A stretch of DNA of 64,000 nt from a virus (lineage: Duplodnaviria > Heunggongvirae > Uroviricota > Caudoviricetes): IMG/VR virus record IMGVR_UViG_3300009551_000042; one strand, written 5' to 3'. A model generated the notes under the pieces. That model did no database searches, was not told where the DNA came from, and saw only the letters and a list, made by a program, of their open reading frames with translations. Positions 8,341-45,042 of the stretch are shown in pieces (position 1 is the stretch's first letter; the number at the start of each line of letters is the position of its first letter). Position numbers and translations under genes: made by a program.

Positions 8341-8616
8341 GCTACCATCGGTGTCCCGTGCACGGGCTGGCCCCGTGCGACTGCCGATGGGCTCTAGTGC
8401 CGAAACGCTGACGTCGACAATACTCGCTGATGTGAGTTTGATTCGCCCGCGAACTTTCGCTGACATCTTTCTTGCTTCTGTTCTTATCCCTGGGCTGTTC
8501 GCTTGGACGGCCCTTAAGGGACTCTTGCTCCACGTGACCGACCGGCGTCGGTGATGGGCTGTAACCCCGTTCCGCTTTGCGCGGCAGTTAGGTTCGACTC
8601 CTAAGTGGTGCACTAT

Positions 8617-8691
8617 GCGGCTGTATCTCAATTGGCAGAGGCCCGGCTTTTAACCGGTGCGACGTCGGTTCGAACCCGGCCAGCCGCACCA
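8617..8691 (+). tRNA. tRNA-Lys(TTT)
   Basis: 7-bp acceptor gcggctg/cagccgc, T-arm gtcgg-ttcgaac-ccggc, loop cttttaa, CCA encoded. Confidence 0.65.
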
Positions 8692-8695
8692 CAAT

Positions 8696-8769
8696 GCGTG
8701 TGTAGCACAGAGGTAGTGCAGTCGGCTCTTAACCGATCGGATCGCGTTCGACTCGCGACGCACGCACCA
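8696..8769 (+). tRNA. tRNA-Lys(CTT)
   Basis: Acceptor gcgtgtg/cgcacgc, D gcac/gtgc, AC gtcgg-ctcttaa-ccgat, T tcgcg-ttcgact-cgcga, CCA encoded. Confidence 0.7.
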
Positions 8770-8816
8770 TCCCCCACGGTTCGCCCGTGGGCTGCCTGGG
8801 GCAACCAGGCTTCTAT

Positions 8817-8888
8817 TCCGGGATCGTCTAACTGGTAGGACTAGGGATTCTGAATCCCTCAACGCTGGATCGTACCCAGCTCTCGGAT
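8817..8888 (+). tRNA. tRNA-Gln(CTG)
   Basis: U1:A72 acceptor tccggga/tctcgga, AC aggga-ttctgaa-tccct, T gctgg-atcgtac-ccagc (A54 T-loop). Confidence 0.6.
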
Positions 8889-8904
8889 CTCTTTGACAAT
8901 CTAT

Positions 8905-8989
8905 TCCAGGATGGGTGAGCGGCAAGCCACTCGGCTGTTAACCGAGCGCAGAAATGCAATCGTTGGTTCGAATCCAACTCCTGGAGCCA
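8905..8989 (+). tRNA. type II (long variable arm) tRNA whose anticodon loop reads GTT
   Basis: Acceptor tccagga/tcctgga, G73, CCA encoded; AC ctcgg-ctgttaa-ccgag; variable hairpin gca-gaaa-tgc; T gttgg-ttcgaat-ccaac. Confidence 0.5.
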
Positions 8990-8991
8990 TT

Positions 8992-9063
8992 GCCGGTCTA
9001 GCACTCGGGGAGTGCACCTCATTTGTAACGAGGAGTAGATGGGTTCGAATCCCTTGATCGGCT
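8992..9063 (+). tRNA. tRNA-Thr(TGT)
   Basis: Acceptor gccggtc/gatcggc, D gcac/gtgc, AC loop ttgtaa with A31-C39 mismatch, T atggg-ttcgaat-ccctt. Confidence 0.55.
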
Positions 9064-9150
9064 CTAGGGTGCCTGTTGGTGTGGCGTACCCGTTAACTGA
9101 AGTAACCCAACGCTCGCTGGCAGACCGAGCAAACCCGTCCGCTCATTCAT

Positions 9151-9221
9151 GGCGCATGTACTGCTGGTGCGGTAGTCGGCTTTTCACACCGACCCGCCGG
9201 GATCGTAACCCGGATGCGTCA
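9151..9221 (+). tRNA. tRNA, probable Glu(TTC) with expanded anticodon loop (C31-A39 mismatch)
   Basis: Acceptor ggcgcat/atgcgtc, T ccggg-atcgtaa-cccgg; AC stem gtcgg/ccgac with 9-nt loop cttttcaca. Confidence 0.4.
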
Positions 9222-9310
9222 CTACCCGGAGCGGCAACCGGGCATCAAAGTGTCGCGCGCAGGCTTCGAGACATTTGGCCCGGGCTGGTTCTCTCGATTG
9301 TAGCGCGTTA

Positions 9311-9383
9311 GGGTCGTTAGCAAATCTGGTGATTGCCGTGCGTTGAAGCCGCACAGAGGCCGGTTCGAATCCGGCGCGACCCA
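9311..9383 (+). tRNA. tRNA-Phe(GAA)
   Basis: Acceptor gggtcgt/gcgaccc, D gcaa/ttgc, AC gtgcg-ttgaagc-cgcac, T gccgg-ttcgaat-ccggc. Confidence 0.75.
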
Positions 9384-9473
9384 CTTGTGCGGAGTTGGCT
9401 CCGTTGGCGACGGGGGAAGGCCTGTGACCTGGGGTGAGAGGACCCTTTTGACTGCCAGGAAAGACTGGCTCTG

Positions 9474-9546
9474 CGAGCTGAAGTCCGTTGGACGGACACG
9501 TGTCTTGGGCACACGATGTATGAGAGTTCGATTCTCTCCAGCTCGA
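9474..9546 (+). tRNA. tRNA-Pro(TGG)
   Basis: C1:G72 acceptor cgagctg/cagctcg, D gtcc/ggac, AC cgtgt-cttgggc-acacg, T gagag-ttcgatt-ctctc. Confidence 0.7.
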
Positions 9547-9551
9547 CGACT

Positions 9552-9626
9552 GGGGTGTGGCCCGGGTTTGGGCAAGGGCGGCTGTGACCCGCTTTTAACG
9601 GAGTTCGACTCTCCGGCATCCCTCCA
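9552..9626 (+). tRNA. tRNA, probable His(GTG)
   Basis: Acceptor ggggtgt/gcatccc, T cggag-ttcgact-ctccg, CCA encoded; AC ggcgg-ctgtgac-ccgct; D-arm irregular. Confidence 0.45.
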
Positions 9627-10186
9627 TGGACAGGGAGAAAAGCAAACGCCTGAGCTATGTGCTGAGGCACCACCCAGAAAGCGCCGGGCTTACGCTTGAC
9701 GTTGCTGGTTGGGCTGACGTGCATCGCCTTATGGCGAACATGGGGTTTAACCCGACCGAACTGTCTCACGAAGTGCTTACGAATTCAAAGCAGCGCTTCG
9801 AGTTCAGTGATGATGGGATGCGCATTCGCGCCTGTCAAGGTCACAGTGTGGATGTAGACCTGGGGCTACGCGAGCAGCAGCCGCCCATAGTGCTTTTCCA
9901 CGGTACGTGCGAAGACTCACTTCCTGGAATTCGGGAAGAGGGCATCAAAGCGATGTCCCGTAGACAGGTGCACCTGTCGACCGACCGCGAGACGGCTCAG
10001 CAGGTCGGGGCTCGTCACGGTGCGCCAGTCGTCTTGAGCGTTCAGTCATTGCTGATGTGCGTTGAGGGCTACCGCTTCTATCTCTCGACCAACGGAGTCT
10101 GGCTTACGGATTCCGTACCATCAAAGTTCATCAACTTCGGGCCGCGCCGACAGCCCTCGGGTATTCCCGAAAACCCGGCGCCCTAA
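9626..10186 (+). CDS. kptA: RNA 2'-phosphotransferase (Tpt1/KptA family)
   Basis: KRLSYVLRHHPE, IRACQGHSVDVDL, VLFHGTCEDSL, RRQVHLS motifs; start ATG overlaps the CCA end of the preceding tRNA. Confidence 0.8.
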   Translation: MDREKSKRLSYVLRHHPESAGLTLDVAGWADVHRLMANMGFNPTELSHEVLTNSKQRFEFSDDGMRIRACQGHSVDVDLGLREQQPPIVLFHGTCEDSLPGIREEGIKAMSRRQVHLSTDRETAQQVGARHGAPVVLSVQSLLMCVEGYRFYLSTNGVWLTDSVPSKFINFGPRRQPSGIPENPAP

Positions 10187-10188
10187 AT

Positions 10189-10259
10189 GCTACCGGACGC
10201 GATTGGATCGCGAACCCGCTGTCTACGGGTTGAAGAGGGTTCGATTCCCTTCGGTAGCG
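10189..10259 (+). tRNA. tRNA-Asp(GTC)
   Basis: Acceptor gctaccg/cggtagc, D cgcg/cgcg, AC acccg-ctgtcta-cgggt, T gaggg-ttcgatt-ccctt. Confidence 0.7.
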
Positions 10260-10330
10260 CCCGCTGGTGACACAGCAGACCGCTACCCGTCGGCACACGG
10301 GTTGATAGGCGTAACGGGTACGCCGCTCAT

Positions 10331-10398
10331 GAGTCCGAGTGCAGGGCACAACGAAGCCTCCAAAACTTCGGAACTAGGTTCGATTCCTAGCGGGCTCG
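10331..10398 (+). tRNA. tRNA, probable Trp(CCA); compact D-arm, C31-A39 mismatch
   Basis: Acceptor gagtccg/cgggctc, T ctagg-ttcgatt-cctag; AC stem cgaag/cttcg with inner loop ctccaaa; 68 nt. Confidence 0.4.
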
Positions 10399-10557
10399 CT
10401 ACATGTCGAGATCAAGGCATGACAGCAAGCGTCGTGGTGGCCGTGAATATTGGTCGCGTCGCTACACGCCAACAGCGCTCTCCTGGGGAACGTATGGCAA
10501 ACGTTTGACGCATCGCTTCGAGCGGCAGCAAGCCAAACGAATCATTCTCGAACAATC

Positions 10558-10630
10558 GGGGCACTGACGAAGGCGTCGGAACATCCTTGCAAGATGTCTC
10601 CAGAGGGAGCGTTACCCTCGTGCTCCACCA
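10558..10630 (+). tRNA. tRNA-Ala(TGC)
   Basis: Acceptor ggggcac/gtgctcc with G3-U70, AC acatc-cttgcaa-gatgt, T gaggg-agcgtta-ccctc (non-canonical T-loop), CCA encoded. Confidence 0.6.
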
Positions 10631-10730
10631 GTCGCCAGTTAGCTGATAAATCACTGGCAAGCAGGGACAAGGGTTACCGGTTTACTAGACCCTCCTGCGA
10701 ACTCGATTGCAACGAGCAAACCGGAACAAT

Positions 10731-10799
10731 GCTGGTTCGTCTTGGAGACCGCTCTGCATGGTAAGCAGGCCGGAACGGGATCGAAACCCGTAACCAGCT
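10731..10799 (+). tRNA. tRNA-Thr(GGT)
   Basis: Acceptor gctggtt/aaccagc, AC tctgc-atggtaa-gcagg, T acggg-atcgaaa-cccgt; tiny D-loop. Confidence 0.45.
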
Positions 10800-10978
10800 C
10801 GGGCATTCCCAGGATCGGGGAGTTTGAAAGTCGGCACGCCTGCCGGCGCTTAGCAACTTAAACGCGGGTTGTGGTGACATGTGGCGCGCCGGTCGCTCCG
10901 GCAATGACAATCACATGCAGGCCGGTTTGCTGTCCGGTCGCAATCCACCAAAGCGGACTAGTCACTAAAACAGCATCT

Positions 10979-11053
10979 GCGCGTGAGGTGTACTTGGCTG
11001 CATCTCTGTCTTCCAAACAGAAGGACTCGGATCATTCCCGAGCACGCGCACCA
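10979..11053 (+). tRNA. tRNA-Gly(TCC)
   Basis: Acceptor gcgcgtg/cacgcgc, AC tctgt-cttccaa-acaga, T ctcgg-atcattc-ccgag, CCA encoded. Confidence 0.65.
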
Positions 11054-11054
11054 C

Positions 11055-11128
11055 GCAGTCAATGAGTTACGGTAGCTCGTCGCATTGCCAATGCGGAGGC
11101 CCGGGATCATCACCCGGTGACTGCACCA
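11055..11128 (+). tRNA. tRNA-Gly(GCC)
   Basis: Acceptor gcagtca/tgactgc, D gagt/gctc, AC tcgca-ttgccaa-tgcgg, T ccggg-atcatca-cccgg, CCA encoded. Confidence 0.7.
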
Positions 11129-11129
11129 C

Positions 11130-11198
11130 GACCCGCAGCCCAGGGGGCTAGCAGCGCTGCAAACGCAGCTCGGGGCGGATCGATACCGCCGCGGGTCT
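11130..11198 (+). tRNA. tRNA-like, anticodon unresolved
   Basis: Acceptor gacccgc/gcgggtc and T ggcgg-atcgata-ccgcc are clean; the central region folds as a tetraloop hairpin (gctgc-aaac-gcagc) instead of a 7-nt anticodon loop. Confidence 0.35.
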
Positions 11199-11203
11199 CA
11201 AGC

Positions 11204-11271
11204 GCCCCCGCCGATGGACGGCACCGCGTCTTCTAAACGCACGTGAGCAGGCTCGATCCCTGCCGGGGGCA
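11204..11271 (+). tRNA. tRNA-Arg(TCT)
   Basis: Acceptor gcccccg/cgggggc, AC gcgt-cttctaa-acgc, T gcagg-ctcgatc-cctgc; truncated D-arm, 68 nt. Confidence 0.45.
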
Positions 11272-11275
11272 CTAT

Positions 11276-11347
11276 GCCGCGCTCGACTTCAGGTGAGGTC
11301 GTAGGTTTCTCAAACCTACCAGACGGGATCGTTACCCGTGCGCGGTG
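11276..11347 (+). tRNA. tRNA-Glu(CTC)
   Basis: Acceptor gccgcgc/gcgcggt, D gact/ggtc, AC taggt-ttctcaa-accta, T acggg-atcgtta-cccgt. Confidence 0.7.
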
Positions 11348-11385
11348 CCGATGAAACCAGGCACCACACCGATCGGTTAAATCAT

Positions 11386-11454
11386 ACCCCGGCCCGAGGA
11401 TGGGCCGTGACGCTACGAACGTTACTGGACAGGGTTCGAGTCCCTGACGGGGTA
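11386..11454 (+). tRNA. tRNA-Arg(ACG)
   Basis: AC tgacg-ctacgaa-cgtta, D ggcc/ggcc, T caggg-ttcgagt-ccctg; acceptor has a G7-A66 mismatch or a 1-nt offset. Confidence 0.5.
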
Positions 11455-11512
11455 CCTATGTCGGGCGAGTGAAACGGTTCACGTCAGCCTCATAAGCTGA
11501 AAACACCCAGGT

Positions 11513-12478
11513 TCAATTCCAGGGGCCCGACTCCAAAATCTTCTCCGCGTACGCTTGCCCAATGAGGCAATCCGCGGCGCCAGTCCTATGGATCATGTCA
11601 GCGCCAAACGCTGACCCGTAGGAGTCGATCGCGTGACCAGGTGACGCGATCGACGTCTGCACGGCGCGCACAGCATCCATGCTGGCCTTCTTGTATCGCG
11701 GCGACCAAGTGATCACGATGTACGGATCCAGCGGCTGTTTCGCGACGCCTTCGAACGCCGCCCGCAACGCAGCGAGCCGTCCGGGCCAGGCTGCGGTAAC
11801 CTCGGGGTCGCCGAGCTTCGCTTCGTTCTCGCCTTGATCCCAGACCCAGCGGAAATCAAACGCAGTACCGGACGGGAACTCTTTGGCGAGCAGCGAAACC
11901 GCCAGCTCGAATTTCTTGACGTAAGGAACGCCGGGACCAGTCGGATCCCACTGGCTGATGTACGTGCCGCCGTGCGTGATCTTGATCACGGCAACGCGAC
12001 GGCCGGCAGCCTGCAAGGCCTTTGCTGCGCATAGCTCATGTGACAGCGTGCCGTCGAACGCAGGAGCAACTGACAGGAACGCTTCCTGCTGGAGCGCCTT
12101 TGCCTTGCCGAAGCTGAACTGGAACTCCGGAATTGTTGCGTCCGGAACGCCTCCCGGTACCGAGTCCGTCGACATTCCCTCCGCGTTGCTCTGACCAGCA
12201 ACGAACAGCACGATGACTGGAAGCTCTGGGCCTGCACCAGCTTCGCCTCCAGTGGCTAACGCACCCGCTTCGCCTCCGGCGCCTGCTGCTCCGGCCTCGA
12301 CGCTCGCAGCCTGTCCCGCTTCGCCACCGATGGTCGCTTGCTCAACAACGGCAGGAGCGCCGGCCCCTGATTCGTGGGCCCCCGCCTCGTCGCACAGTGT
12401 GGCCTGATTCGACTCAGTAGGCACCGCTGACGAGCAAGCCACCACCATTCCCACTACAAGCATAGCCATGTGTTTCAT
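11513..12478 (-). CDS. secreted lipoprotein, SASA-type SGNH carbohydrate esterase (sialate O-acetylesterase-like)
   Basis: Signal/lipobox MKHMAMLVVGMVVAC, Ala/Gly-rich linker, then VAGQSNAEG (GQSNMxG-type motif). Only minus-strand gene inside the plus-strand tRNA array. Confidence 0.6.
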   Translation of the reverse strand: MKHMAMLVVGMVVACSSAVPTESNQATLCDEAGAHESGAGAPAVVEQATIGGEAGQAASVEAGAAGAGGEAGALATGGEAGAGPELPVIVLFVAGQSNAEGMSTDSVPGGVPDATIPEFQFSFGKAKALQQEAFLSVAPAFDGTLSHELCAAKALQAAGRRVAVIKITHGGTYISQWDPTGPGVPYVKKFELAVSLLAKEFPSGTAFDFRWVWDQGENEAKLGDPEVTAAWPGRLAALRAAFEGVAKQPLDPYIVITWSPRYKKASMDAVRAVQTSIASPGHAIDSYGSAFGADMIHRTGAADCLIGQAYAEKILESGPWN

Positions 12479-12517
12479 CTATGCGCATGGATATCGTCCA
12501 TATTTATTACCGTCAAG

Positions 12518-12589
12518 CGTGCGCGGCTGAGGTAGCAGCGAAGGCTCATATCCTTTAGCTTTTGGGTTCGAATCCCAGGCGCACGACCA
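12518..12589 (+). tRNA. tRNA-Met/Ile(CAT)
   Basis: C1:G72 acceptor cgtgcgc/gcgcacg, AC gaagg-ctcatat-ccttt, T ttggg-ttcgaat-cccag, CCA encoded; no initiator G-C triplet. Confidence 0.55.
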
Positions 12590-12660
12590 CCAGGAGGCGC
12601 GAATGATGCCTATTCGCTGGCGAGGACTTTAGCGGACCCCGAACTATCGGAGGTTTCGCA

Positions 12661-12735
12661 TGTGCAAGTATTGCAAGCTTGCGATCCAGCTCGGCGGCAA
12701 GATGTGCCGCCCATGCTGGCGTCGGAAGCGTTGAA
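12661..12735 (+). CDS. 24-aa zinc-ribbon micro-ORF (MCKYCKLAIQLGGKMCRPCWRRKR)
   Basis: GGAGG RBS 8 nt upstream, CxxC-N9-CxxC; a second AGGAGG-ATG micro-ORF (MMPIRWRGL) lies at 12603-12632. Confidence 0.3.
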
Positions 12736-12812
12736 CTGACACTCGCAGAGGCGAACGCCTGCTGCGCAAAAATGGAGAGCCGCGCGCCAAGCGTCTGAAC
12801 AGCGGCAACTAT

Positions 12813-12884
12813 TCCAGGTTCGTCTAACGGGTAGGACGCAGGATTTTGGTTCCTGCTATCGGGGTTCGAATCCTCGCCCTGGAA
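12813..12884 (+). tRNA. tRNA-Gln(TTG)
   Basis: U1:A72 acceptor tccaggt/ccctgga (7:66 mismatch), D gtct/ggac, AC cagga-ttttggt-tcctg, T cgggg-ttcgaat-cctcg. Confidence 0.55.
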
Positions 12885-12888
12885 CAAC

Positions 12889-12963
12889 GGCACGCGAGTC
12901 CAGCTGGTGAAGGCGGCGCACTTACAATGCGTTCTCGCATGGGTTCGATTCCCTGGCGTGTCA
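12889..12963 (+). tRNA. tRNA-Val(TAC)
   Basis: Acceptor ggcacgc/gcgtgtc, AC gcgca-cttacaa-tgcgt, T-stem with 1-nt bulge around ggg-ttcgatt-ccc. Confidence 0.5.
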
Positions 12964-12969
12964 CCCCGA

Positions 12970-13041
12970 GCGCGTTCGGTTGGGTAGCCTAGCCGGCCTT
13001 ATGAGCGGTGAGAGCTGGTTCGACTCCAGCAGCGCGCACCA
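12970..13041 (+). tRNA. tRNA, anticodon unresolved (expanded 8-10-nt loop ccttatga)
   Basis: Acceptor gcgcgtt/agcgcgc, T gctgg-ttcgact-ccagc, CCA encoded; no clean 5-7-5 anticodon hairpin. Confidence 0.4.
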
Positions 13042-13042
13042 T

Positions 13043-13116
13043 GCACCTGAGTCCACCTGGTTGGTGGAAACGATCTGATACGTCGTACGCGGTGAGTTCG
13101 ATTCTCACGAGGTGCA
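13043..13116 (+). tRNA. tRNA-Ile(GAT)
   Basis: D tcca/tgga, AC acgat-ctgatac-gtcgt, T gtgag-ttcgatt-ctcac; acceptor gcacctg/gaggtgc with 7:66 mismatch. Confidence 0.6.
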
Positions 13117-13152
13117 CCCGTCTGCGGGAGGACGTTAAACAGTCCCGTCAAT

Positions 13153-13226
13153 CCTGACGTAGCCCAATTGGCCGAGGCAACCGTCTTAGAAACGGACAGA
13201 TGTGGGTTCGAGTCCCTCCGTCAGGA
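13153..13226 (+). tRNA. type I tRNA whose anticodon loop reads TAG (Leu CUA codon) but lacks a long variable arm
   Basis: C1:G72 acceptor cctgacg/cgtcagg, AC accgt-cttagaa-acgga, 5-nt variable loop, T gtggg-ttcgagt-ccctc. Confidence 0.45.
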
Positions 13227-13241
13227 CTAGTAGCGACTAAC

Positions 13242-13326
13242 GCAAGCGTGGTGGAACAGGCAGACGCAGCGGCTTCAAACCCCGCCGGGCTATCAGCCCA
13301 TGCGAGTTCGACTCTCGCCGCTTGCA
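13242..13326 (+). tRNA. type II tRNA (85 nt); anticodon loop cttcaaa (TCA) or alternative register CAA
   Basis: Acceptor gcaagcg/cgcttgc, T gcgag-ttcgact-ctcgc; anticodon stem imperfect (gg/cc then mismatch). Confidence 0.45.
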
Positions 13327-13332
13327 CAGACC

Positions 13333-13857
13333 ATGAGACGCCGAAGAGCAAACCAACCCGGTCGCAAAACGCTGGTTCTTAGCGCAAGCTACGTGCCCGT
13401 CCGCATTATCTCATGGCGCGACGCAATCAAGATGCGTTGCGAGGACACGGCCGATGTGGTGGCGGAGTACCGCGAGACGGTTAGCTCACCGTCGGTAACG
13501 TGGCGCATTCCGGCCGTGATCCGCGAGCGGCAATTTCACAAGGGCCGCGCTGGTGTCAGGTTTAGTCCGCTGAATGTCTTCAGGCGCGACGGCTACCGCT
13601 GTCAGTATTGCGGCGACAGATTCCCGCCCGACAAGCTCGAATGCGAACACGTTGTCCCGAAGAGCAAGGGCGGGAAGCGCAACTGGGAAAACATCGTTGC
13701 GGCATGCCGCACATGCAACGCCAGAAAGCGCGATAGGAGCTGCGAGGAGATCGGCATGTTCCCGTTGGCCAAACCAGTGCGGCCCAAGTCGCTTCCTGTC
13801 GACAGGCTCGAGGTGCCGCACGAGCGAGCGCCTGAAGAATGGCTCGCGTATTTGTGA
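13333..13857 (+). CDS. HNH endonuclease
   Basis: CQYCG...HVVPKSKGG...N...ACRTCNARK HNH motif; ATG chosen right after the tRNA 3' end (longer 13300 start would overlap the tRNA). Confidence 0.7.
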   Translation: MRRRRANQPGRKTLVLSASYVPVRIISWRDAIKMRCEDTADVVAEYRETVSSPSVTWRIPAVIRERQFHKGRAGVRFSPLNVFRRDGYRCQYCGDRFPPDKLECEHVVPKSKGGKRNWENIVAACRTCNARKRDRSCEEIGMFPLAKPVRPKSLPVDRLEVPHERAPEEWLAYL

Positions 13858-13862
13858 TTTCT

Positions 13863-13945
13863 GGAAAGTAAACCCTGAGTGGTCGGGGAGCCGGTTTGAA
13901 CCCGGTGGCACCGCAAGGTGAGGCGTTCGACTCGTCTGCTTTCCT
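13863..13945 (+). tRNA. tRNA-Ser(TGA), type II
   Basis: Acceptor ggaaagt/gctttcc, AC gccgg-tttgaac-ccggt, variable hairpin cacc-gcaa-ggtg, T aggcg-ttcgact-cgtct. Confidence 0.6.
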
Positions 13946-13951
13946 CAAACT

Positions 13952-24890: not shown

Positions 24891-25095
24891 GCGGCGCCTC
24901 CACCACGCAAAGACACCGACCCTCCAGCAACTCCGCGTGCTCGCCGGTTGCACACTTCTTCGCCTCGCACTCGTTGGTGTTCCGAAACGCTAGCCATGCG
25001 GTGATGGCAACAGCGATGAAGAACACCAGGCAGCCTACGGGGCTACGGGGGCTGAAGATCAGCGCCACGTCCAGCACGTCACCGTCATCGATCAT
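24886..25095 (-). CDS. small membrane protein
   Basis: TM LVFFIAVAITAWLAF; GTGA coupling to the helicase and ATGA coupling to the upstream gene. Confidence 0.45.
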   Translation of the reverse strand: MIDDGDVLDVALIFSPRSPVGCLVFFIAVAITAWLAFRNTNECEAKKCATGEHAELLEGRCLCVVEAPR

Positions 25096-25676
25096 TTGCT
25101 AAACCTCTCGTCGAGCTTGCCTACGCGGCCAGGAGGCACCACACCATCGGGCCACAAATGCGGGTTTGGACCGAGTCCAGCGACGTAGAGCCACTCATCG
25201 ATCTCGTGCGCGACCAGCTCGATCATCAGCCGTCGCGCCTCACGGACCGCTTCCTCGGCGGTGTCTACGTACTTACCTCCGCCGCGCAGGAGAATTTCCT
25301 GCGTGTGCAGACCGCCAGTTAGCGGGGTCGGCTTCACGCTAACTGAGACGCAGACATAAGTCTTCTCGTACGGAATGAACGAAGGCATCCCTAGCGCCGT
25401 GTGGAATCGGAGGTCACGCAAGGAAAGCGTGATCTCATCCAGCGCTTTACTTACTGCTGCTAAGCGCTCGTCGATAGGCGGAGCTGCGTAGCCACCGATC
25501 GTAACGGTCTCGAATTTCAACTCAGTGAGCCGGCCTCCGAAGTCGTGAAGCTTCGGAAAGTCCAGCTTGTCTGACTCGGTCGGTTGCGGTGGAGCTGGCT
25601 CCTTTGCAGCTGCCTTGCGCTTCACCTGCCGCAAGCGCTCACGCTCGCGCCACCGCTCGTCATGCTTGCTCAGCAT
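25092..25676 (-). CDS. hypothetical protein
   Basis: ORF 194 aa. Confidence 0.6.
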   Translation of the reverse strand: MLSKHDERWRERERLRQVKRKAAAKEPAPPQPTESDKLDFPKLHDFGGRLTELKFETVTIGGYAAPPIDERLAAVSKALDEITLSLRDLRFHTALGMPSFIPYEKTYVCVSVSVKPTPLTGGLHTQEILLRGGGKYVDTAEEAVREARRLMIELVAHEIDEWLYVAGLGPNPHLWPDGVVPPGRVGKLDERFSK

Positions 25677-25690
25677 TCAAAACCTCCGGG

Positions 25691-26079
25691 TGGACCGCCC
25701 GGGAATCGAACCCGGGTCCACGAGACGGAACAGAGGATCTCGCTCACGCGCGTAGTCCGTTTAGAGCCCGGACGGGCTTGACGCCGGGGGGACGGCGCCT
25801 CCACCACCAGTGCCTACTAGAACGTCGATGGAAGGTGCACTGGAACCATCGTCGACAGCTGCCCGTGTATTTGCGCCGTGAGAGCTACTCGGGCTCTCGC
25901 ACCCACGACGGCTTACGCTGCCAGGGGCAGGTAAGCATCACCCTCGTCGGCTTGCGCCTCGAAGGGGACCGCGTTGTCGTTCGCAGTTACGTTTGCTCGC
26001 CGGGATTAACGACTCTCGCGAGCATGAGTCGGCGCGATCAATCCTACATCCACATCCCATGTCGAAACCTGTGCGGCCC
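25691..26079 (-). ncRNA. ssrA: tmRNA (ssrA-like), tag reading frame ANDNAVPFEAQADEGDAYLPLAA-stop
   Basis: Minus strand: 5' GGGCCGCACAGGTTTCGACATGGG (cf. bacterial GGGG...GGAUUCGACGGG); 3' T-arm ccggg-ttcgatt-cccgg plus acceptor gcggtcc pairing with the 5' end including G3-U70; tag ORF at plus 25904-25975 ending LAA-TAA. Confidence 0.7.
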
Positions 26080-26087
26080 AGACACGC

Positions 26088-26288
26088 TCAGTCGTTGTCG
26101 GTGAAAAACTCCTCAATGCCGCCGTGCGCCTCGATGTAGCGCCAAGCCAGCACGCCTGCGATTGCGATGGCGACGAAGAATCCGCCAATCAGGATGACAT
26201 CGAAAAACTTGATCACGAGCAGCGCAACGATTGCGACAACTGCCGTTGTGATGATGGTCTTCTTTTCCTCAGCCCAGAACTTTTCCAT
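26088..26288 (-). CDS. small membrane protein (2 TM)
   Basis: TAVVAIVALLVIKFF and IGGFFVAIAIAGVLAW. Confidence 0.55.
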   Translation of the reverse strand: MEKFWAEEKKTIITTAVVAIVALLVIKFFDVILIGGFFVAIAIAGVLAWRYIEAHGGIEEFFTDND

Positions 26289-28877: not shown

Positions 28878-30509
28878 ATGAAATACCTACAGCACTTCAA
28901 TCCGGCTCGCACGCCGCAGACCGAGCAAGCGTCCGCTAAGCAGGTCCCGAACTCGGCCGGCGGGTTTTCCTTTGCCGTCGACAACTGGAAGCGCCTGGAA
29001 AGGTTCGTGATCTTGGGGTCTGAGGGCGGCAGTTACTACGCGAGTGAGAAGACGCTGACCCGCGAAAGCGCCGCAGCTGTCCTGGCGTGCTGTGCGGAGG
29101 ATGGTCCGCGCGCCGTCAGTTCTGTCGTGGAAATCTCGGACAGCGGCCGGGCACCAAAGAACGATGCCGCTATATTTGCCCTAGCGCTTGCCGCCACGCA
29201 CGATAACCCGAGCGCTCGTGAGGCGGCGCTCTCCGCGCTACCGCGCGTGTGTCGAACCGGGACGCACCTGTTCCAGTTTGTTTCACAGGTCGATCAGATG
29301 CGCGGCTGGGGCAGAGCCCTACGGCGCGGCGTATCGAACTGGTACACGAGCAAGACGCAAGCTGACCTTGCGTTTCAGGTTTGCAAGTACCAGAACCGCG
29401 AGGGTTGGTCGCACGCTGACGTTCTAGCCCGCTGCCACGCGCGAAGCCTCGACCTGAATCCGGTGTTACGTTGGATCGTCGCTGGCATCAACGGGGGCGG
29501 TGAGCGCGCACATTACAGCCGGGAGATGCAGCTGTTTCGTGAGTATCCGGACCCGGGTCCCCTCCCCGAGTTCCTGATCGACTTCGAGGAGCTGAAGCAT
29601 GCTGACGAGAAGCGAACCATTCAGCTGATTCAAAAACACGGCTACACGCACGAAATGATCGCGACCGAGCATAAGAACTCGGCGGCGGTTTGGGAGTCAT
29701 TACTCCCGCGCATGGGCATGACCGCGCTCATTCGTAACCTGGGCAAACTGACCGAGGTCGGTTTACTCAAGCCGCTGAGTGCAGCCGCGCGAACAGTCTC
29801 CGAGCGATTGCAGGATCGAGAGGCCTTGCGCAAGGGGCGAGTCCATCCGATTCAAATGCTCTCGGCCCTCAGTGTCTACGCACAAGGCCACGGCGAGCGC
29901 GGGTCTCTGACCTGGGTTCCCGTTAGCACTGTGACCGATGCACTGAATGAGGGTTTCTATCAGTCGTTCGGAGTCATCCAGCCGAGCGGCAAGCGCCACA
30001 TGCTGGCGCTCGATGTTTCTGGAAGCATGACCTGCGGGCGCATCGCTGGAGTGCCGGGGCTCACGCCGCGCACTGCGTCTGCGTGCATGGCGATGGTGAC
30101 CGCCCGCGTTGAAAAGGAATGGGAGGTATACGGCTTCTCAGATCGCTTCATCAAGCTGGACATCAGCCCGACTCGTCGCCTGGACGAAATTTGCCACTAC
30201 ATGAACCGGTTGCCGTTCAGCTCGACGAATTGCTCGCTACCGATTCAGTTCGCGAGCCAGCAAAAGATGGAGGTCGATCTGTTCTCCGTCTACACCGACT
30301 CAGAGACCTACGCGGGCAATGAGCACCCGCACCAGTCACTGCGCCGATACCGGCAAAACATGGGTATTCCGGCTCGCATGGCCGTGATCGGGATGGTTTC
30401 CAACGGATTCACGATCGCTGATCCTGATGACGCCGGCATGCTGGACGTCGTCGGCTTTGACACAGCGACGCCCGCGCTACTTTCAGCGTTCGCGCGCGGC
30501 GACCTCTAG
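28878..30509 (+). CDS. rsr: Ro60-related protein (Rsr; TROVE domain plus C-terminal vWA)
   Basis: 543 aa; TROVE-like N-terminal region; C-terminal MIDAS LALDVSGSM. Confidence 0.8.
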   Translation: MKYLQHFNPARTPQTEQASAKQVPNSAGGFSFAVDNWKRLERFVILGSEGGSYYASEKTLTRESAAAVLACCAEDGPRAVSSVVEISDSGRAPKNDAAIFALALAATHDNPSAREAALSALPRVCRTGTHLFQFVSQVDQMRGWGRALRRGVSNWYTSKTQADLAFQVCKYQNREGWSHADVLARCHARSLDLNPVLRWIVAGINGGGERAHYSREMQLFREYPDPGPLPEFLIDFEELKHADEKRTIQLIQKHGYTHEMIATEHKNSAAVWESLLPRMGMTALIRNLGKLTEVGLLKPLSAAARTVSERLQDREALRKGRVHPIQMLSALSVYAQGHGERGSLTWVPVSTVTDALNEGFYQSFGVIQPSGKRHMLALDVSGSMTCGRIAGVPGLTPRTASACMAMVTARVEKEWEVYGFSDRFIKLDISPTRRLDEICHYMNRLPFSSTNCSLPIQFASQQKMEVDLFSVYTDSETYAGNEHPHQSLRRYRQNMGIPARMAVIGMVSNGFTIADPDDAGMLDVVGFDTATPALLSAFARGDL

Positions 30510-30627
30510 TAGCCAAACGAGGCCACAACTAAAACAAGACTACGGCACGAGCCGGAAGCTGGTGGGTTATCAATTGTAAACTGATGCCAACCCCACCGGC
30601 GCCACCTTTGTTCGTGCCAACTTTTAC

Positions 30628-33703: not shown

Positions 33704-35359
33704 TTGGCCATGCGTTGCGCTTTCTATGGCCGGAAATCAACCGAAGAACAGATCGCCTCTCTGGACGTCCAGATGGAAGAGGCGACGAGGTATGCCCAAT
33801 CTAAGGGTTGGACGCTTGCTCCCGGACACATCTACCAAGACAGCGCGATCAGCCGCGCAGAGTTCAAGAAGCGCCCAGGTCTTATCGCGCTGCTCAACGC
33901 TCTAAGCTCCGGTGAGTTCGACGCGGTGATCATGCGCGACGACTCGCGCTTGGGCGGCGACATGCACCGCACCGGCCTGGTCGTTCAGGACATCATCGAG
34001 AACGGTAAGCGGCTCTTCTGCTACTTCGAGGAGAACGAAATCACCCTAGAGTCCGCCACGGACAAGTTCATGATGGCCGTGCGAGGTTTCGCGGCTGAGC
34101 TAGAGCGAGAGAAGATTGCAGGTCGTACCCGTGAGCACCTTGAGACTAAGGCCCGCAAGGGCTACGTAACTGGAGGCAAGTGTTACGGATACGACAACGA
34201 GCGTTTAGCCGACCATGTTGAGCACCGCATCAACGAAACCCAAGCCGCTATCGTTCGCGAGGTGTTCCAGGCGAAGGCAGATGGCGACGGCTACAAGAAG
34301 ATCGCAAAGCGTCTAAACGCGCGCGGCGTCCCCTCGCCTAGCGCCGGGAAGCGCGGCACTGGGTCATGGGCCCCGACTATGATCCTCAGCATGCTTCGAA
34401 ACGAGCGCTATATCGGCGCCGTTCTCTGGGGCAAGGCTACGAAGACTTACCGCGGAGGAACGAAAGTCAGGCTTCAATCAGCGGAGGAGGATCGAATCCG
34501 TAGTGAGCGCCCAGAGCTGCGCATTGTCCCGCAAGAGCTGTGGGATCAGGTTCAAGCCGGAATGCGGCAAAACAAGTCGAGCGGACGCAGGCGCGGGCCA
34601 GAGCCTCGCTACCTGCTATCCGGGATTGCCCGATGCTCTGAGTGCGACGGCCCCATGCGGGCACATGCGGCAAAGTTCGGTTCTGAAAAAACCCACCTGT
34701 ACCTTTGCGCTCGTCACCATGATCGCGGTGACGCCGTCTGCAAGAGCGATCTGCGTCGGCCGGTGGCCCTCGTGGACGCAGCCGTGATCGATTGGGTCAT
34801 GGCAAATGTCTTGAATGAAGAGGTCATCACGGCCGTGTTGGCTGAGGTCAGGGGCCGCGTAGCAAAGCGAAGCGAGGCGCCCAACGCCGAGCGCGACGAG
34901 CTGGAAACAGAGTCGAAGCGCCTACGCGCGGAGATCGATCGGCTGGTCGGTGCTTTGGCTAGCGGCGTTGAATCCGCGACGATCGCCACCGTCATCGGTC
35001 AGCGCGAAAAGCGACTGATGGAGGTCAAGGCTCGCCTTGAGGTCATTGCTATCGCGCCTTCGGTCCTGGACCTGGAGGTGCGACGGCTGGAAAAGGAAGC
35101 CCGTGCGCGCCTGAAAGAGTTCAAGAAGATTCTGAGCGGCAACGTGGCCGTTCTTGAGTCACGAAAAGTGCTCGAAGCGCTGTTTGATGGCCCAATGCGC
35201 TTCACCGAGACATCGACCCCCGGTGGCCGCCGCTTTCGCGTTGAATTTGCGGTGGCCACCGGGAATCTGATGTCCCCTACTGCGGGCGTCCCCAAGGGGA
35301 TTCGAACAGTAGGGGACATGATGGAATTCCCTGAAAAACGAGGGGTGCTCACAGCCTAG
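33704..35359 (+). CDS. large serine recombinase / serine integrase
   Basis: N-terminal resolvase catalytic domain (AFYGRKSTEEQ), recombinase domain, zinc ribbon CSECDGPM...C..C, coiled-coil C-terminus. Confidence 0.8.
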   Translation: MAMRCAFYGRKSTEEQIASLDVQMEEATRYAQSKGWTLAPGHIYQDSAISRAEFKKRPGLIALLNALSSGEFDAVIMRDDSRLGGDMHRTGLVVQDIIENGKRLFCYFEENEITLESATDKFMMAVRGFAAELEREKIAGRTREHLETKARKGYVTGGKCYGYDNERLADHVEHRINETQAAIVREVFQAKADGDGYKKIAKRLNARGVPSPSAGKRGTGSWAPTMILSMLRNERYIGAVLWGKATKTYRGGTKVRLQSAEEDRIRSERPELRIVPQELWDQVQAGMRQNKSSGRRRGPEPRYLLSGIARCSECDGPMRAHAAKFGSEKTHLYLCARHHDRGDAVCKSDLRRPVALVDAAVIDWVMANVLNEEVITAVLAEVRGRVAKRSEAPNAERDELETESKRLRAEIDRLVGALASGVESATIATVIGQREKRLMEVKARLEVIAIAPSVLDLEVRRLEKEARARLKEFKKILSGNVAVLESRKVLEALFDGPMRFTETSTPGGRRFRVEFAVATGNLMSPTAGVPKGIRTVGDMMEFPEKRGVLTA

Positions 35360-35981: not shown

Positions 35982-36782
35982 ATGCGCCTCGCTTGGCTCA
36001 CTGATATTCACCTAGACCACCTCAAACCTCGACGCGAAGCGCGTCGGGCATTCGCGGAACTCGTCGCCAATTCCGCGGACGCTTGTGTGATTACCGGCGA
36101 CTGTTCCAGCGCTACAGAAGCCCATCTACTCGGCGATTTCGCGGACGATAACGGTAAACCCGTCTACTTCGTCCTAGGGAATCACGACTACTGGGGCAGC
36201 TCATTCGGCGGCGCCGAGGAGCACGTGCGTAAGCTTTGTGCTGCGCGTTCCAACCTGCATTGGCTGACTGAATCAGGTCCAATTGACATCGCTCCCGGCG
36301 TTCAGCTGTGCGGTGTTGACGGTTGGTACGACGCCGAATTCGGCAACTGGCGATCCAGCGACTTCATCATGGTTGATTGGAAAAAGATCACCGACTTGCG
36401 GAAGATTTTCCAAGTAATGGCAGGCGAACACCTCGTCAAAGCCTGCCGCGAGCGTGCGCAAATGTTCGCCATCAAGGCACGGGAACAGCTCTCGAAGGCG
36501 ACCGCAAAGCGCGTGTTCTTCGCAACGCATATGCCACCGTTCGAGCAGTCAGCCATGCATGAGGGGCGCCCCTCTACGCCTCAAGCTCTACCTTGGTACA
36601 CCTCACGCGCGATGGGTTACGCGCTCATGATTCACGCCGACAAACACCGCGACCAGGAATTCACGACGCTTTGCGGCCACGTTCATTCGGCATCTGAGTA
36701 CATCGAAGGGCCGAACCACACCGTCCTTTGTGGCGCGGCTGAGTACGGTAGGCCGGAGATTGTGAGGGTTTTCGACCTATGA
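35982..36782 (+). CDS. calcineurin-like metallophosphoesterase
   Basis: DIHLDH, ITGDCSSA, GNHDYW, GHVH blocks. Confidence 0.7.
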   Translation: MRLAWLTDIHLDHLKPRREARRAFAELVANSADACVITGDCSSATEAHLLGDFADDNGKPVYFVLGNHDYWGSSFGGAEEHVRKLCAARSNLHWLTESGPIDIAPGVQLCGVDGWYDAEFGNWRSSDFIMVDWKKITDLRKIFQVMAGEHLVKACRERAQMFAIKAREQLSKATAKRVFFATHMPPFEQSAMHEGRPSTPQALPWYTSRAMGYALMIHADKHRDQEFTTLCGHVHSASEYIEGPNHTVLCGAAEYGRPEIVRVFDL

Positions 36783-44761: not shown

Positions 44762-45042
44762 GGGTATTTGTCAGCCTGGTTGCATTCAACCTGGCTGAGG
44801 TCGCGATTCAGAGGGAAGAGGCGCGGGGGATGGTTGAGGCGTGCCTTTGGCGCCTTCTAGCGCTCATTGGCGAAAGGCGACCAAAGCTTGTTGGAGTCTA
44901 CGACGGTGACGCGGGATGCGTTCACGTCGTCTATCGGGTGAGGACGCGCAGTCGTGCGCTGCAATGGCACGCGCTGTCCGCACCATTCGGGGATCTGGAC
45001 CGACGGTTCATTGATGACGCTTGGGGGCAAGAGGAAACATGA
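44758..45042 (+). CDS. hypothetical protein
   Basis: ORF 94 aa. Confidence 0.45.
   Translation: MRVFVSLVAFNLAEVAIQREEARGMVEACLWRLLALIGERRPKLVGVYDGDAGCVHVVYRVRTRSRALQWHALSAPFGDLDRRFIDDAWGQEET

What the first reader, a model, noticed from the sequence alone, without database searches (positions are those of the whole stretch)
25691..26079. Phage-borne tmRNA (ssrA) on the minus strand with an ANDN...PLAA tag
The ~390-nt stretch between two protein genes has no credible ORF. On the minus strand it has a tmRNA-type 5' end (GGGCCGCACAGGTTTCGACATGGG). Its 3' end carries a canonical T-arm and a 7-bp acceptor that pairs with that 5' end, including the G3-U70 alanine identity pair. An internal reading frame (plus 25904-25975) starts GCG-AAC-GAC-AAC and ends LAA-TAA, the classic ClpXP degron. 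A tmRNA in a tRNA-rich phage suggests the phage manipulates or rescues stalled ribosomes. That fits the co-occurrence of anticodon-nuclease counter-measures elsewhere in the window.
Basis: partly seen in the sequence, partly recalled or inferred. Interest (0 to 1): 0.75.

Follow-up and report, generated by a model that had tools for sequence, protein, structure and literature searches.

The report
Phage-borne tmRNA with long tag

Summary
Confirmed. Window 25689-26079 (minus strand) is a complete one-piece tmRNA. ARAGORN calls it, with tag ANDNAVPFEAQADEGDAYLPLAA*. Rfam RF00023 gives 88.8 bits (gathering score 47, E 3.8e-33, full-length match).

It lies inside a co-oriented block of phage replication genes on a 112-kb soil metagenome contig. 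That contig also carries 21 tRNAs, Tpt1, an RNA ligase and a Ro60-like protein.

Five diverged relatives (63-70% RNA identity) carry the same tmRNA beside the same uncharacterised 190-aa gene. On the six sequences, 93% of structure cells pair. Twenty-five pairs show compensatory changes, against 10.1 +/- 2.2 in shuffles and at most 5 in slid controls. PK1-PK4 form in every sequence, often with different bases. The RNA is therefore under selection, not a relic.

Only this phage has a 23-residue acidic tag, from a 30-nt in-frame insert; its relatives have 13 residues. I found no SmpB. CCA is not fully encoded.

Phage tmRNAs are documented in about 2.3% of phage genomes, in cluster C mycobacteriophages and in huge phages. 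The verdict is a new member of a known kind, of modest interest.

The parts
25689..26079 (-). Complete one-piece tmRNA (ssrA) gene, 391 nt
   Evidence: ARAGORN. Rfam RF00023 at 88.8 bits, E 3.8e-33, full-length. Identical in the source contig copy L001.
26073..26079 (-). Acceptor stem, 5' strand GGGCCGC (G3 of the G3-U70 pair; unusual C4)
   Evidence: Pairs with 25692-25698. All 7 pairs are kept in 6 of 6 homologues, G-U at position 3 is invariant, and there is one compensatory G6:C to C6:G change in L019.
26061..26069 (-). D-loop analogue GGUUUCGAC of the tRNA-like domain
   Evidence: Invariant in all six homologues. Aligned to the model consensus GGaUUCGAC.
26032..26061 (-). Helix 2, 5' strand (three segments)
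   Evidence: Pairs with 25719-25751. There are 20 pairs in 3 segments, 8 of them with compensatory changes, and 90-100% of cells are paired.
25994..26031 (-). Pseudoknot PK1 (S1 CGACUC/GAGUCG; S2 UGCUCGC/GCGAGCA), ending 9 nt before the resume codon
   Evidence: Both stems are found in all six sequences. S1 has 4 of 6 pairs with compensatory change and S2 has 1.
25913..25984 (-). Tag reading frame: resume codon GCG, 23 codons, stop UAA. Encodes ANDNAVPFEAQADEGDAYLPLAA*
   Evidence: The leader CGUAACU plus GCG AAC GAY AAC GCG G is invariant in the six homologues. The frame contains a 30-nt in-frame insert absent from the five relatives.
25911..25936 (-). Helix 5 hairpin GCUUAC-CUGCC...GGCAG-C-GUAAGC, holding the UAA stop in its 3' strand
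25861..25910 (-). Pseudoknot PK2 (S1 CGUCGUGGG/CUCACGGCG; S2 GCCCG/CGGGC)
   Evidence: The first pair of S2 is G-C, A-U or U-A in different homologues. The outer part of S1 has 3 compensatory pairs.
25807..25857 (-). Pseudoknot PK3 (S1 CGAUGG/CCAUCG; S2 CCAGUGC/GCACUGG)
   Evidence: The script reports a 7-bp S2 with a different sequence in five of the six RNAs (for example GGCCGUU/AACGGCC in L010, CCAUGCU/AGCAUGG in L012, GCUGGAU/GUCCAGC in L019). For L020 a 6-7-bp S2 (CCCAUU(C)/(G)AAUGGG) was read by eye from the printed segment.
25780..25799 (-). G+C-rich hairpin GGCGCCG-UCCCCC-CGGCGUC between PK3 and PK4
   Evidence: Read by eye in all six sequences from the segments printed (5 of 6 pairs in L019). 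MAFFT does not keep it in register, so one search counts only 65% of its cells as paired.
25755..25778 (-). Pseudoknot PK4 (S1 AGCC/GGCU; S2 GUCC/GGAC)
   Evidence: S2 is GUCC/GGAC, GUCG/CGAC, GUUG/CAAC, GGUCG/CGACC, AGCU/AGCU or GCUC/GAGC in the six homologues. Three of its 4 pairs are compensatory.
25719..25751 (-). Helix 2, 3' strand
   Evidence: partners of 26032-26061.
25699..25715 (-). T-arm CCGGG-UUCGAUU-CCCGG
   Evidence: All cells are paired, and 2 pairs show compensatory changes (GGGGG/CCCCC in L019, CUGGG/CCCAG in L022).
25691..25698 (-). Acceptor 3' strand GCGGUCC plus discriminator A. It is followed by CC-C, so the CCA end is not fully encoded.
   Evidence: A full CCA is encoded in only 2 of the 6 homologues.
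25092..25676 (-). Conserved neighbour gene, 194 aa, function unknown, with invariant motif L..HE.DE.L..AGLGP.PH. Its GGAGG ribosome-binding site starts 3 nt after the tmRNA 3' end.
   Evidence: All six full-length family members lie next to this tmRNA type. Distant homologues do not. There is no Pfam, PHROG or PDB match. The AF2 model has pLDDT 82 and no convincing fold match.
26088..26288 (-). Upstream co-oriented 66-aa predicted membrane protein. Its stop codon ends 8 nt before tmRNA +1.
   Evidence: No promoter-like or terminator-like site lies between it and the tmRNA.

Best explanation
This is a functional, phage-encoded, one-piece tmRNA (SsrA).

Shown by computation:
- It has every sequence and structure element of the family: an alanine-type tRNA-like domain with G3-U70 and discriminator A, a T-arm, a D-loop analogue, the long helix 2, and PK1 placed just upstream of a GCG resume codon.
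- It has a 23-codon tag frame whose stop codon sits in helix 5, followed by PK2-PK4.
- These elements are maintained by compensatory substitutions in six diverged members of one phage clade.

Inferred mechanism:
- The RNA is transcribed as part of the minus-strand replication-gene operon. It starts 8 nt after the upstream stop codon, and the next gene's ribosome-binding site follows 3 nt after its 3' end.
- RNase P cuts it out at the 5' end and host 3' processing trims the other end. The CCA-adding enzyme completes the 3' end.
- Host AlaRS charges it with alanine, and host SmpB and EF-Tu deliver it to ribosomes stalled at the 3' ends of broken mRNAs.
- The ribosome switches to the tag frame, appends ANDNAVPFEAQADEGDAYLPLAA, terminates and is recycled. 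The ...LAA carboxy terminus targets the product to host ClpXP-type proteases.

Inferred benefit: the phage gains extra ribosome-rescue capacity during infection, when mRNAs and tRNAs are being cleaved by host nucleases or by the phage's own host shut-off. This fits the rest of the phage's RNA toolkit (21 tRNAs, Tpt1, RNA ligase, phosphoesterases, Ro60-like protein).
For: - Two detectors agree: ARAGORN and Rfam at 88.8 bits, E 3.8e-33, full length.
- The same RNA occurs in five further lineages at 63-70% identity to this one.
- On the six-sequence alignment, 93.0% of 399 structure cells pair (shuffles 83.0 +/- 1.0, 0 of 500 reach it). Twenty-five pairs have changes on both sides (shuffles 10.1 +/- 2.2, 0 of 500; slid controls 0-5). 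The covariation score is 0.374 against 0.167.
- All four pseudoknots form in each sequence, often with unrelated bases (PK3 of L020 was read by eye from the same output).
- G3-U70, the discriminator A, the leader CGUAACU and the codons for ANDNA are invariant. All tags end in Ala/Val-rich termini: PLAA, AQAA or ALVA.
- The context is phage on both sides.
- No promoter-like or terminator-like site flanks the gene.
- Precedent: 402 of 18,146 phage genomes carry a tmRNA (PMC9004378). Huge phages carry tmRNA and SmpB (PMC7162821). Cluster C mycobacteriophage Alice has an annotated tmRNA with a 25-aa acidic tag, plus many tRNAs and a Ro-like protein.
Against: - There is no expression, charging or tagging data. 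The host is unknown, so the tag cannot be compared with the host's own.
- No SmpB was found in the window. The first 48 kb of the contig was only partly seen.
- CCA is not fully encoded.
- The Rfam score (89 bits) is much lower than that of a bacterial tmRNA from a Polyangia genome (164 bits), so the RNA is divergent.
- The 23-residue acidic tag is unique within the clade. It could alter adaptor or protease recognition.
Confidence: 0.87

Rival explanations
1. The RNA is a real tmRNA but is used to re-programme tagging, not simply to add rescue capacity. The phage copy would out-compete the host tmRNA for SmpB and stalled ribosomes and attach a different, longer, acidic tag. That tag could change the fate of tagged proteins, for example by escaping an adaptor such as SspB, slowing proteolysis, or avoiding a host response that monitors trans-translation.
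For: - The tag is 23 residues with 5 acidic and no basic residues, because of a 30-nt in-frame insert that the five relatives (13-residue tags) lack.
- The only other phage tmRNA examined here, from mycobacteriophage Alice, also has a long acidic tag (25 aa, 7 acidic).
- A TLD-only relative of this very tmRNA type exists in L016. TLD-only molecules are reported to inhibit tmRNA, perhaps by titrating SmpB (PMC4131195). Interference with host trans-translation is therefore within the repertoire of this RNA lineage.
Against: - Five of the six clade members have ordinary 13-residue tags with the canonical ANDNA start and Ala-rich end. The clade-wide function therefore does not need a long tag.
- The N-terminal ANDN and the C-terminal LAA, the two parts known from E. 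coli work (own knowledge) to be read by SspB and ClpX, are both retained in this tag.
Confidence: 0.08
2. The tmRNA is a passenger: a host ssrA copy picked up by imprecise prophage excision, not used by the phage and on its way to decay.
For: - ssrA is a classical prophage integration site, and ssrA fragments in phages are attributed to imprecise excision (PMC9004378).
- The element encodes a serine integrase (33704-35359).
- A related tmRNA sits right next to a tyrosine integrase at the end of an IMG/VR contig (L029).
Against: - The gene is full-length and is kept in six lineages that have diverged to 63-77% RNA identity, with about 36-45% identity between this window's neighbour protein and the other five. 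Helices are preserved by 25 compensatory pairs.
- The tag frame, resume context and identity elements are invariant.
- The gene lies about 8 kb from the integrase, inside an operon of replication genes.
Confidence: 0.03
3. The contig is bacterial and this is the host's own chromosomal ssrA, with a prophage or island on one side.
For: - No capsid or terminase gene was seen in the window itself.
- An integrase is present.
- The tmRNA of L029 looks like a provirus boundary.
Against: - Both flanks are phage-type genes in one co-oriented block: helicase, AAA_24, 5'-3' exonuclease and SSB on one side, and VWA, Ro60-like and DUF6197 on the other.
- There is no gap or signal separating the RNA from its neighbours.
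- A virion structural protein family hit and a weak tail-fibre hit lie upstream.
- The 30-nt 3' signature of the tRNA-like domain is absent from one genome of each of 185,579 bacterial and archaeal species.
- The same RNA recurs in a different gene order in related phage contigs that carry a different integrase type.
Confidence: 0.02

Closest known systems
Bacterial one-piece tmRNA (SsrA, Rfam RF00023), as in E. coli
   Same: The architecture is the same: an alanine tRNA-like domain with G3-U70, helix 2, PK1, a resume codon for Ala, a tag ending in LAA with its stop codon in helix 5, and PK2-PK4. The tag starts ANDN, as many proteobacterial and myxobacterial tags do. A Polyangia genome has ANDNNATAALAA with an identical 19-nt leader.
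   Different: - It is encoded by a phage and embedded in a protein-coding operon without signals of its own.
- The acceptor is GGGC... (C4:G69), where the model consensus has GGGG.
- It scores only 89 bits, against 164 for the Polyangia tmRNA.
- The tag has 23 residues, about twice the usual length.
- No smpB was found nearby.
tmRNA of cluster C mycobacteriophages (Bxz1, Alice and others; Bixzunavirus)
   Same: It is a phage-borne one-piece tmRNA in a genome that also has a large tRNA set and a Ro-like RNA-binding protein (43.5% identical to this window's). It also has a long acidic tag (Alice: ATDTDATVTDAEIEAFFAEEAAALV, 25 aa) and a low Rfam score of 77 bits.
   Different: - There is no detectable DNA similarity.
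- In Alice the tmRNA lies inside the tRNA array. Here it is 12 kb from the array, between protein genes.
- Alice also has an RF-1-domain protein; none was seen here.
- The tag families differ (ATDTD... against ANDNA...), and so, probably, does the host phylum.
Two-piece (permuted) tmRNAs of marine phages such as OM43 phage Melnitz and pelagimyophages
   Same: They are phage-encoded ssrA genes placed within an operon. The authors propose that they maintain the hijacked translation machinery or tag host proteins (PMC9004378).
   Different: Those are circularly permuted two-piece RNAs, some with a glutamine riboswitch. This one is a standard one-piece RNA, and no riboswitch was found by Rfam.
tmRNA plus SmpB in huge phages (Al-Shayeb et al. 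2020)
   Same: The tmRNA is part of an expanded phage translation and RNA toolkit (PMC7162821).
   Different: The contig is 112 kb, not over 200 kb. No phage SmpB was found in the parts examined.
TLD-only tmRNA derivative of mycobacteriophage DS6A (comparison for the side observation in L016)
   Same: L016 carries the same acceptor, D-loop analogue and T-arm as this window's tmRNA, joined by a short hairpin with no mRNA or pseudoknot domain. DS6A is listed as 'TLD only' (PMC4131195).
   Different: L016 is a different lineage and is not in this window. It is only a 1.2-kb contig, so its context is unknown.

Membership tests
tmRNA (SsrA; Rfam RF00023) | Covariance-model score above the curated gathering threshold over the full model | tested here: met
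   88.8 bits against a gathering score of 47, E 3.8e-33, model positions 1-374 of 374. ARAGORN agrees.
tmRNA (SsrA; Rfam RF00023) | tRNA-like domain: 7-bp acceptor stem with the G3-U70 alanine identity pair, discriminator A, T-arm with a T-loop, D-loop analogue, and no anticodon arm | tested here: met
   GGGCCGC/GCGGUCC with G3-U70 is invariant in 6 of 6. All acceptor and T-arm cells are paired, with compensatory changes in both helices. GGUUUCGAC is invariant.
tmRNA (SsrA; Rfam RF00023) | Encoded or added 3' CCA end | tested here: inconclusive
   The genome reads A-CC-C after the acceptor. A full CCA is encoded in only 2 of the 6 homologues. The terminal A must be added after transcription, and most of the phage's tRNAs also lack an encoded CCA. 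No CCA-adding enzyme was found in the window.
tmRNA (SsrA; Rfam RF00023) | Long helix 2 connecting the tRNA-like domain to the pseudoknot/mRNA domain | tested here: met
   Twenty pairs in three segments, 8 of them with changes on both sides, and 90-100% of cells paired.
tmRNA (SsrA; Rfam RF00023) | PK1 immediately upstream of the resume codon | tested here: met
   S1 has 6 bp and S2 has 4-8 bp in all six sequences. S1 has 4 compensatory pairs. PK1 ends 9 nt before the GCG resume codon.
tmRNA (SsrA; Rfam RF00023) | Short internal reading frame that starts at an Ala codon without a start codon, and ends in a hydrophobic Ala-rich C-terminus followed by an in-frame stop in or near helix 5 | tested here: met
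   GCG ... CUG GCA GCG UAA encodes ANDNAVPFEAQADEGDAYLPLAA*. The UAA lies in the 3' strand of the hairpin GCUUAC...GUAAGC.
tmRNA (SsrA; Rfam RF00023) | Pseudoknots PK2, PK3 and PK4 between the tag frame and the 3' strand of helix 2 | tested here: met
   All three form in all six sequences (PK3 of L020 was read by eye from that output). S2 of PK2, PK3 and PK4 each changes sequence while keeping complementarity.
tmRNA (SsrA; Rfam RF00023) | Alanylation by AlaRS, SmpB binding, and trans-translation activity | not testable with these tools
   This needs biochemistry or infected-cell data. Only the sequence determinants are present.
Phage-encoded tmRNAs | The gene lies within a phage genome, not at a prophage/host junction | tested here: met
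   Phage-type genes lie on both sides in one operon. A virion structural family hit lies upstream. The gene is conserved in five related contigs of 4-106 kb. The integrase is about 8 kb away. Caveat: no capsid or terminase gene was seen in the stretches examined.
ssrA-type ClpXP degron | C-terminal ...LAA-COOH recognised by ClpX | tested here: inconclusive
   The sequence ends PLAA. Recognition by the unknown host's ClpX cannot be tested here. Relatives end in AQAA, ALVA or PLAA.

The most novel reading that the evidence does not exclude
The tmRNA and the adjacent 190-aa protein (invariant L..HE.DE.L..AGLGP.PH motif, alpha-beta-beta-beta-alpha core) form a functional module.

In all six clade members the two genes abut. 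In every case the tmRNA's first base lies 0-8 nt after the stop codon of a co-oriented upstream ORF, which in five of the six is this protein. Cutting the tmRNA out with RNase P would therefore leave that mRNA with almost no 3' UTR.

Two readings follow. The protein could be a phage-specific tmRNA or ribosome cofactor. Alternatively, its synthesis could be coupled to tmRNA maturation and trans-translation, because an mRNA trimmed into its stop codon becomes a non-stop substrate for the RNA just released from it.
Probability: 0.08. Interest if true: 0.6.

Novelty: new member of a known kind. Interest (0 to 1): 0.3.

Why it matters
It adds a well-supported, structurally validated clade to the short list of phage lineages that carry their own ribosome-rescue RNA. 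The clade comes from soil phages with no close GenBank relative, and its host may be a myxobacterium.

The co-occurrence of a tmRNA with a large tRNA set and a Ro60-like protein is also seen in the unrelated cluster C mycobacteriophages. Here the set further includes Tpt1, an RNA ligase and a probable Y-like RNA. This suggests a recurrent, convergently assembled toolkit for keeping translation running in phages.

The six sequences give a natural series of tag variants: 13 residues against 23 acidic residues, and LAA, QAA or LVA ends. Together with a TLD-only derivative, they could be used to test what a phage gains from its own tmRNA, which remains experimentally unanswered.

It does not open a new category.

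Tried and rejected
1. Near and distant BLASTN of the RNA and of 12 kb around it against 50,697 GenBank phages. Nothing was found except a 33-nt chance match in a Microcoleus phage ORF.
2. Exact-pattern scans for the tag region and the 5' end in IMG/VR. The tag pattern gave 0 hits. The 5'-end pattern gave two hits that lie inside a ribonucleotide-reductase ORF, where ARAGORN calls nothing.
3. The 30-nt 3' TLD signature. It gave 0 hits in genome contigs and a single hit in the JGI metagenome collection. That hit is the TLD-only element in L016, not a tmRNA.
4. Looking for relatives through the neighbour protein in IMG/VR gave none. Going through the AAA_24 protein gave six loci, none with a tmRNA.
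5. Is the 194-aa neighbour an SmpB-like partner?
   - There is no Pfam, PHROG or PDB sequence match.
   - Distant homologues are not next to a tmRNA, so the linkage is treated as clade synteny.
   - The 110-aa ORF beside the L016 element is unrelated to this protein.
6. SmpB in the window. No SmpB domain appeared in the Pfam-annotated gene calls or scans.
7. Host inference gave only two weak pointers to Myxococcota. The best phage match of the AAA_24 protein is Myxococcus phages Mx8 and Mx9 at 46.6%. The only bacterial genome sharing the 19-nt tag leader is a Polyangia MAG. The primase/VapE protein was uninformative.
8. A gene-call look-up for ORF 5064-7370 failed because the called start differs. 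The afdb50 fold library was unavailable.

Full report
**Observation.** The minus strand of window 25689-26079 is called as a tmRNA by ARAGORN, with the tag peptide ANDNAVPFEAQADEGDAYLPLAA*. The Rfam tmRNA covariance model RF00023 also matches it, at 88.8 bits against a gathering score of 47, E 3.8e-33, covering model positions 1-374 of 374. The tag frame is real, but it lies at 25913-25984. Mechanical ORFs overlap the region, but the public gene calls for the same contig leave it empty.

**What the window is.**
- The window is the last 64 kb of a 112-kb metagenome contig (ENA ERZ27252311). Identical or near-identical copies occur in a Logan assembly and in a JGI metagenome.
- It has no near relative among 50,697 GenBank phage records.
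- Its gene content is phage-like:
  - NAMPT, NUDIX, SSB, a 5'-3' exonuclease, an AAA_24/Sak4-like ATPase, two helicases and a VapE-type primase-helicase;
  - a sliding clamp, a DNA methyltransferase, a sigma factor and a large serine recombinase;
  - an RNA ligase, two metallophosphoesterases and a Ro60/TROVE protein.
- There are 21 tRNAs, with a Tpt1/KptA RNA 2'-phosphotransferase gene inside the array.
- At and just upstream of the window start there are large glycosidase/esterase proteins, a virion-structural-protein family hit (phrog_3758, E 3.7e-22) and a weak tail-fibre hit.
- The tmRNA sits in a co-oriented minus-strand block: VWA protein, 66-aa membrane protein, tmRNA, 194-aa protein, helicase, AAA_24, exonuclease, SSB, NUDIX, NAMPT.
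- It starts 8 nt after the upstream stop codon. The GGAGG ribosome-binding site of the next gene starts 3 nt after its 3' end. No promoter-like or terminator-like site flanks it.

**Relatives.**
- The 194-aa neighbour protein has very few homologues. A profile search of 1.84 billion representatives found 24, of which six are full-length.
- Every one of the six lies directly beside a tmRNA of the same type, on contigs with the same gene set (Ro60-like, PRA-PH, DUF6197, SSB, exonuclease, NAMPT).
- The five relatives have 13-residue tags: ANDNADAHVAQAA, ANDNAEFALALVA, ANDNADPALALVA, ANDNAEPALALVA and ANDNAEFAQPLAA. The window's RNA alone has a 30-nt in-frame insert that gives 23 residues, five of them acidic.
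- The six RNAs are 63-77% identical to each other.

**Structure.**
- On the six-sequence alignment I specified the acceptor, T-arm, three segments of helix 2, both stems of PK1, PK2 and PK4, and one hairpin. This made 67 pairs.
- 93.0% of the 399 cells form standard pairs, against 83.0 +/- 1.0 in shuffles (0 of 500 reach it).
- 25 pairs show changes on both sides, against 10.1 +/- 2.2 in shuffles (0 of 500) and 0-5 when the 3' partners are slid by 1-3 columns.
- PK3 is not kept in register by MAFFT, so it was examined per sequence. The script found a 7-bp second stem with a different sequence in five of the six RNAs. The sixth (L020) was read by eye from the printed segment. The second stems of PK2 and PK4 likewise vary while keeping complementarity.
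- G3-U70, the discriminator, the GGUUUCGAC element, the leader CGUAACU and the codons for ANDNA are invariant.

**Mechanism.**
- What is shown is the anatomy and its conservation. The rest follows from established knowledge of trans-translation.
- The inferred steps are:
  1. release from a polycistronic transcript by RNase P and 3' processing;
  2. completion of CCA, since the genome encodes A-CC-C and only 2 of 6 relatives encode a full CCA;
  3. alanylation through G3-U70;
  4. delivery by SmpB and EF-Tu to ribosomes stalled on truncated mRNAs;
  5. tagging, followed by proteolysis through the ...LAA end.
- No SmpB was detected in the window, so the host's SmpB would have to be used. That negative is incomplete.
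- The likely benefit is added rescue capacity while RNAs are being cut during infection. This fits the tRNA set and the RNA-repair genes, but it is inference.

**Rivals.**
- A decaying passenger gene is excluded by the covariation.
- A host ssrA at a prophage junction is unlikely. Phage genes flank it on both sides. The integrase is 8 kb away. Relatives keep the RNA with a different integrase type and a different local gene order. The 30-nt 3' signature is absent from one genome of each of 185,579 species.
- A re-programmed tagging role for the long acidic tag cannot be excluded, but the clade as a whole uses ordinary tags.

**Comparison with what is known.**
- Phage tmRNAs are established. 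They occur in 402 of 18,146 phage genomes (PMC9004378), in huge phages together with SmpB (PMC7162821), and in cluster C mycobacteriophages and Bacillus phage G (PMC4131195).
- I checked mycobacteriophage Alice directly. Its annotated tmRNA scores 77 bits and encodes a 25-residue acidic tag. The phage also has a large tRNA set and a Ro-like protein 43.5% identical to this window's.
- This finding is therefore a new member of a known kind, from an unsampled soil phage clade.
- There are two weak pointers to a myxobacterial host. The best phage match of the AAA_24 protein is Myxococcus phages Mx8 and Mx9. The only bacterial genome sharing the 19-nt tag leader is a Polyangia MAG, whose tmRNA is otherwise diverged.

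**The neighbour protein.**
- It has an invariant L..HE.DE.L..AGLGP.PH motif. A confident AF2 model (pLDDT 82) shows an alpha-beta-beta-beta-alpha core.
- No convincing fold or sequence match was found.
- More distant homologues are not next to a tmRNA. I therefore treat the adjacency as clade synteny, and keep a functional coupling only as the low-probability novel case.

**Verdict.** This is a new member of a known kind, with interest 0.3.

Noticed in passing
L016 (JGI metagenome Ga0164318_10402211), minus strand about 659-737: A roughly 79-nt 'TLD-only' derivative of this tmRNA type. It has the same acceptor (GGGCCGC/GCGGUCC), a near-identical D-loop analogue (GGGUUCGAC for GGUUUCGAC) and the same T-arm. 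The whole mRNA/pseudoknot domain is replaced by a short hairpin (CUGCCG...CGGCAG). It starts directly after the stop codon of an unrelated 110-aa ORF. ARAGORN and Rfam call nothing there. The known precedent is mycobacteriophage DS6A ('TLD only'), and such molecules are reported to inhibit tmRNA (PMC4131195).
   Followed up: partly
window 30543-30618 (+): Thirty-four nt downstream of the Ro60/TROVE gene (28878-30509), Rfam family RF01656 (nematode stem-bulge sRNA ceN72-3/ceN74-2) scores 37.5 bits against a gathering score of 38, E 2.8e-5. From my own knowledge, stem-bulge RNAs are the nematode Y-RNA homologues. This is probably a phage-encoded Y-like RNA partner of the Ro protein.
   Followed up: no
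window 9626-10186 (+), inside the tRNA array 8527-13946: A Tpt1/KptA RNA 2'-phosphotransferase gene (PF01885, E 1.8e-42) is embedded among the 21 tRNA genes. With the RNA ligase (about 45039-46058) and two metallophosphoesterases (35982-36782; 53945-54946), it suggests a complete tRNA-repair pathway of the 2'-phosphate-generating type.
   Followed up: partly
window 25092-25676 (-), and homologues in L010, L012, L019, L020 and L022: A rare protein family of about 190 aa (24 representatives among 1.84 billion) with an invariant L..HE.DE.L..AGLGP.PH motif and a confident but unmatched alpha-beta-beta-beta-alpha fold. All six full-length members abut the tmRNA. The order is protein then tmRNA in five, and tmRNA then protein only in this window.
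   Followed up: yes
L029 (IMG/VR UViG_3300010397_000042) 9219-9562 (-): A further tmRNA with the same unusual GGGC acceptor start and the same tag leader. Its tag is ANDNAIPELQAAA and it scores 103.5 bits. It lies about 200 nt from the contig end and 530 nt upstream of a co-oriented tyrosine integrase. It may be a host ssrA at a provirus boundary, which would make it a clue to the bacterial lineage this tmRNA type came from.
   Followed up: partly
tmRNA 5' junctions: window 26079-26090; L010 10570-10572; L012 775-776; L019 1225-1226; L020 6609-6617; L022 6588-6595: In all six phages the tmRNA's first base lies 0-8 nt after the stop codon of a co-oriented upstream ORF. RNase P release of the tmRNA would therefore leave that mRNA with essentially no 3' UTR.
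   Followed up: no
window 2705-5059, 5064-7370 (+) and 11513-12478 (-): These are large proteins with GH5 cellulase plus GDSL esterase domains, F5/8 type C (galactose-binding) domains, and a SASA acetylesterase domain. They are probably tail-associated polysaccharide depolymerases, which hints at a host with a thick exopolysaccharide layer.
   Followed up: no
window 33704-35359 (+) compared with L010 17969-19396: Related phages of this clade carry different integrase types at the equivalent position. This window and L022 have a large serine recombinase, and L010 has a tyrosine integrase.
   Followed up: no
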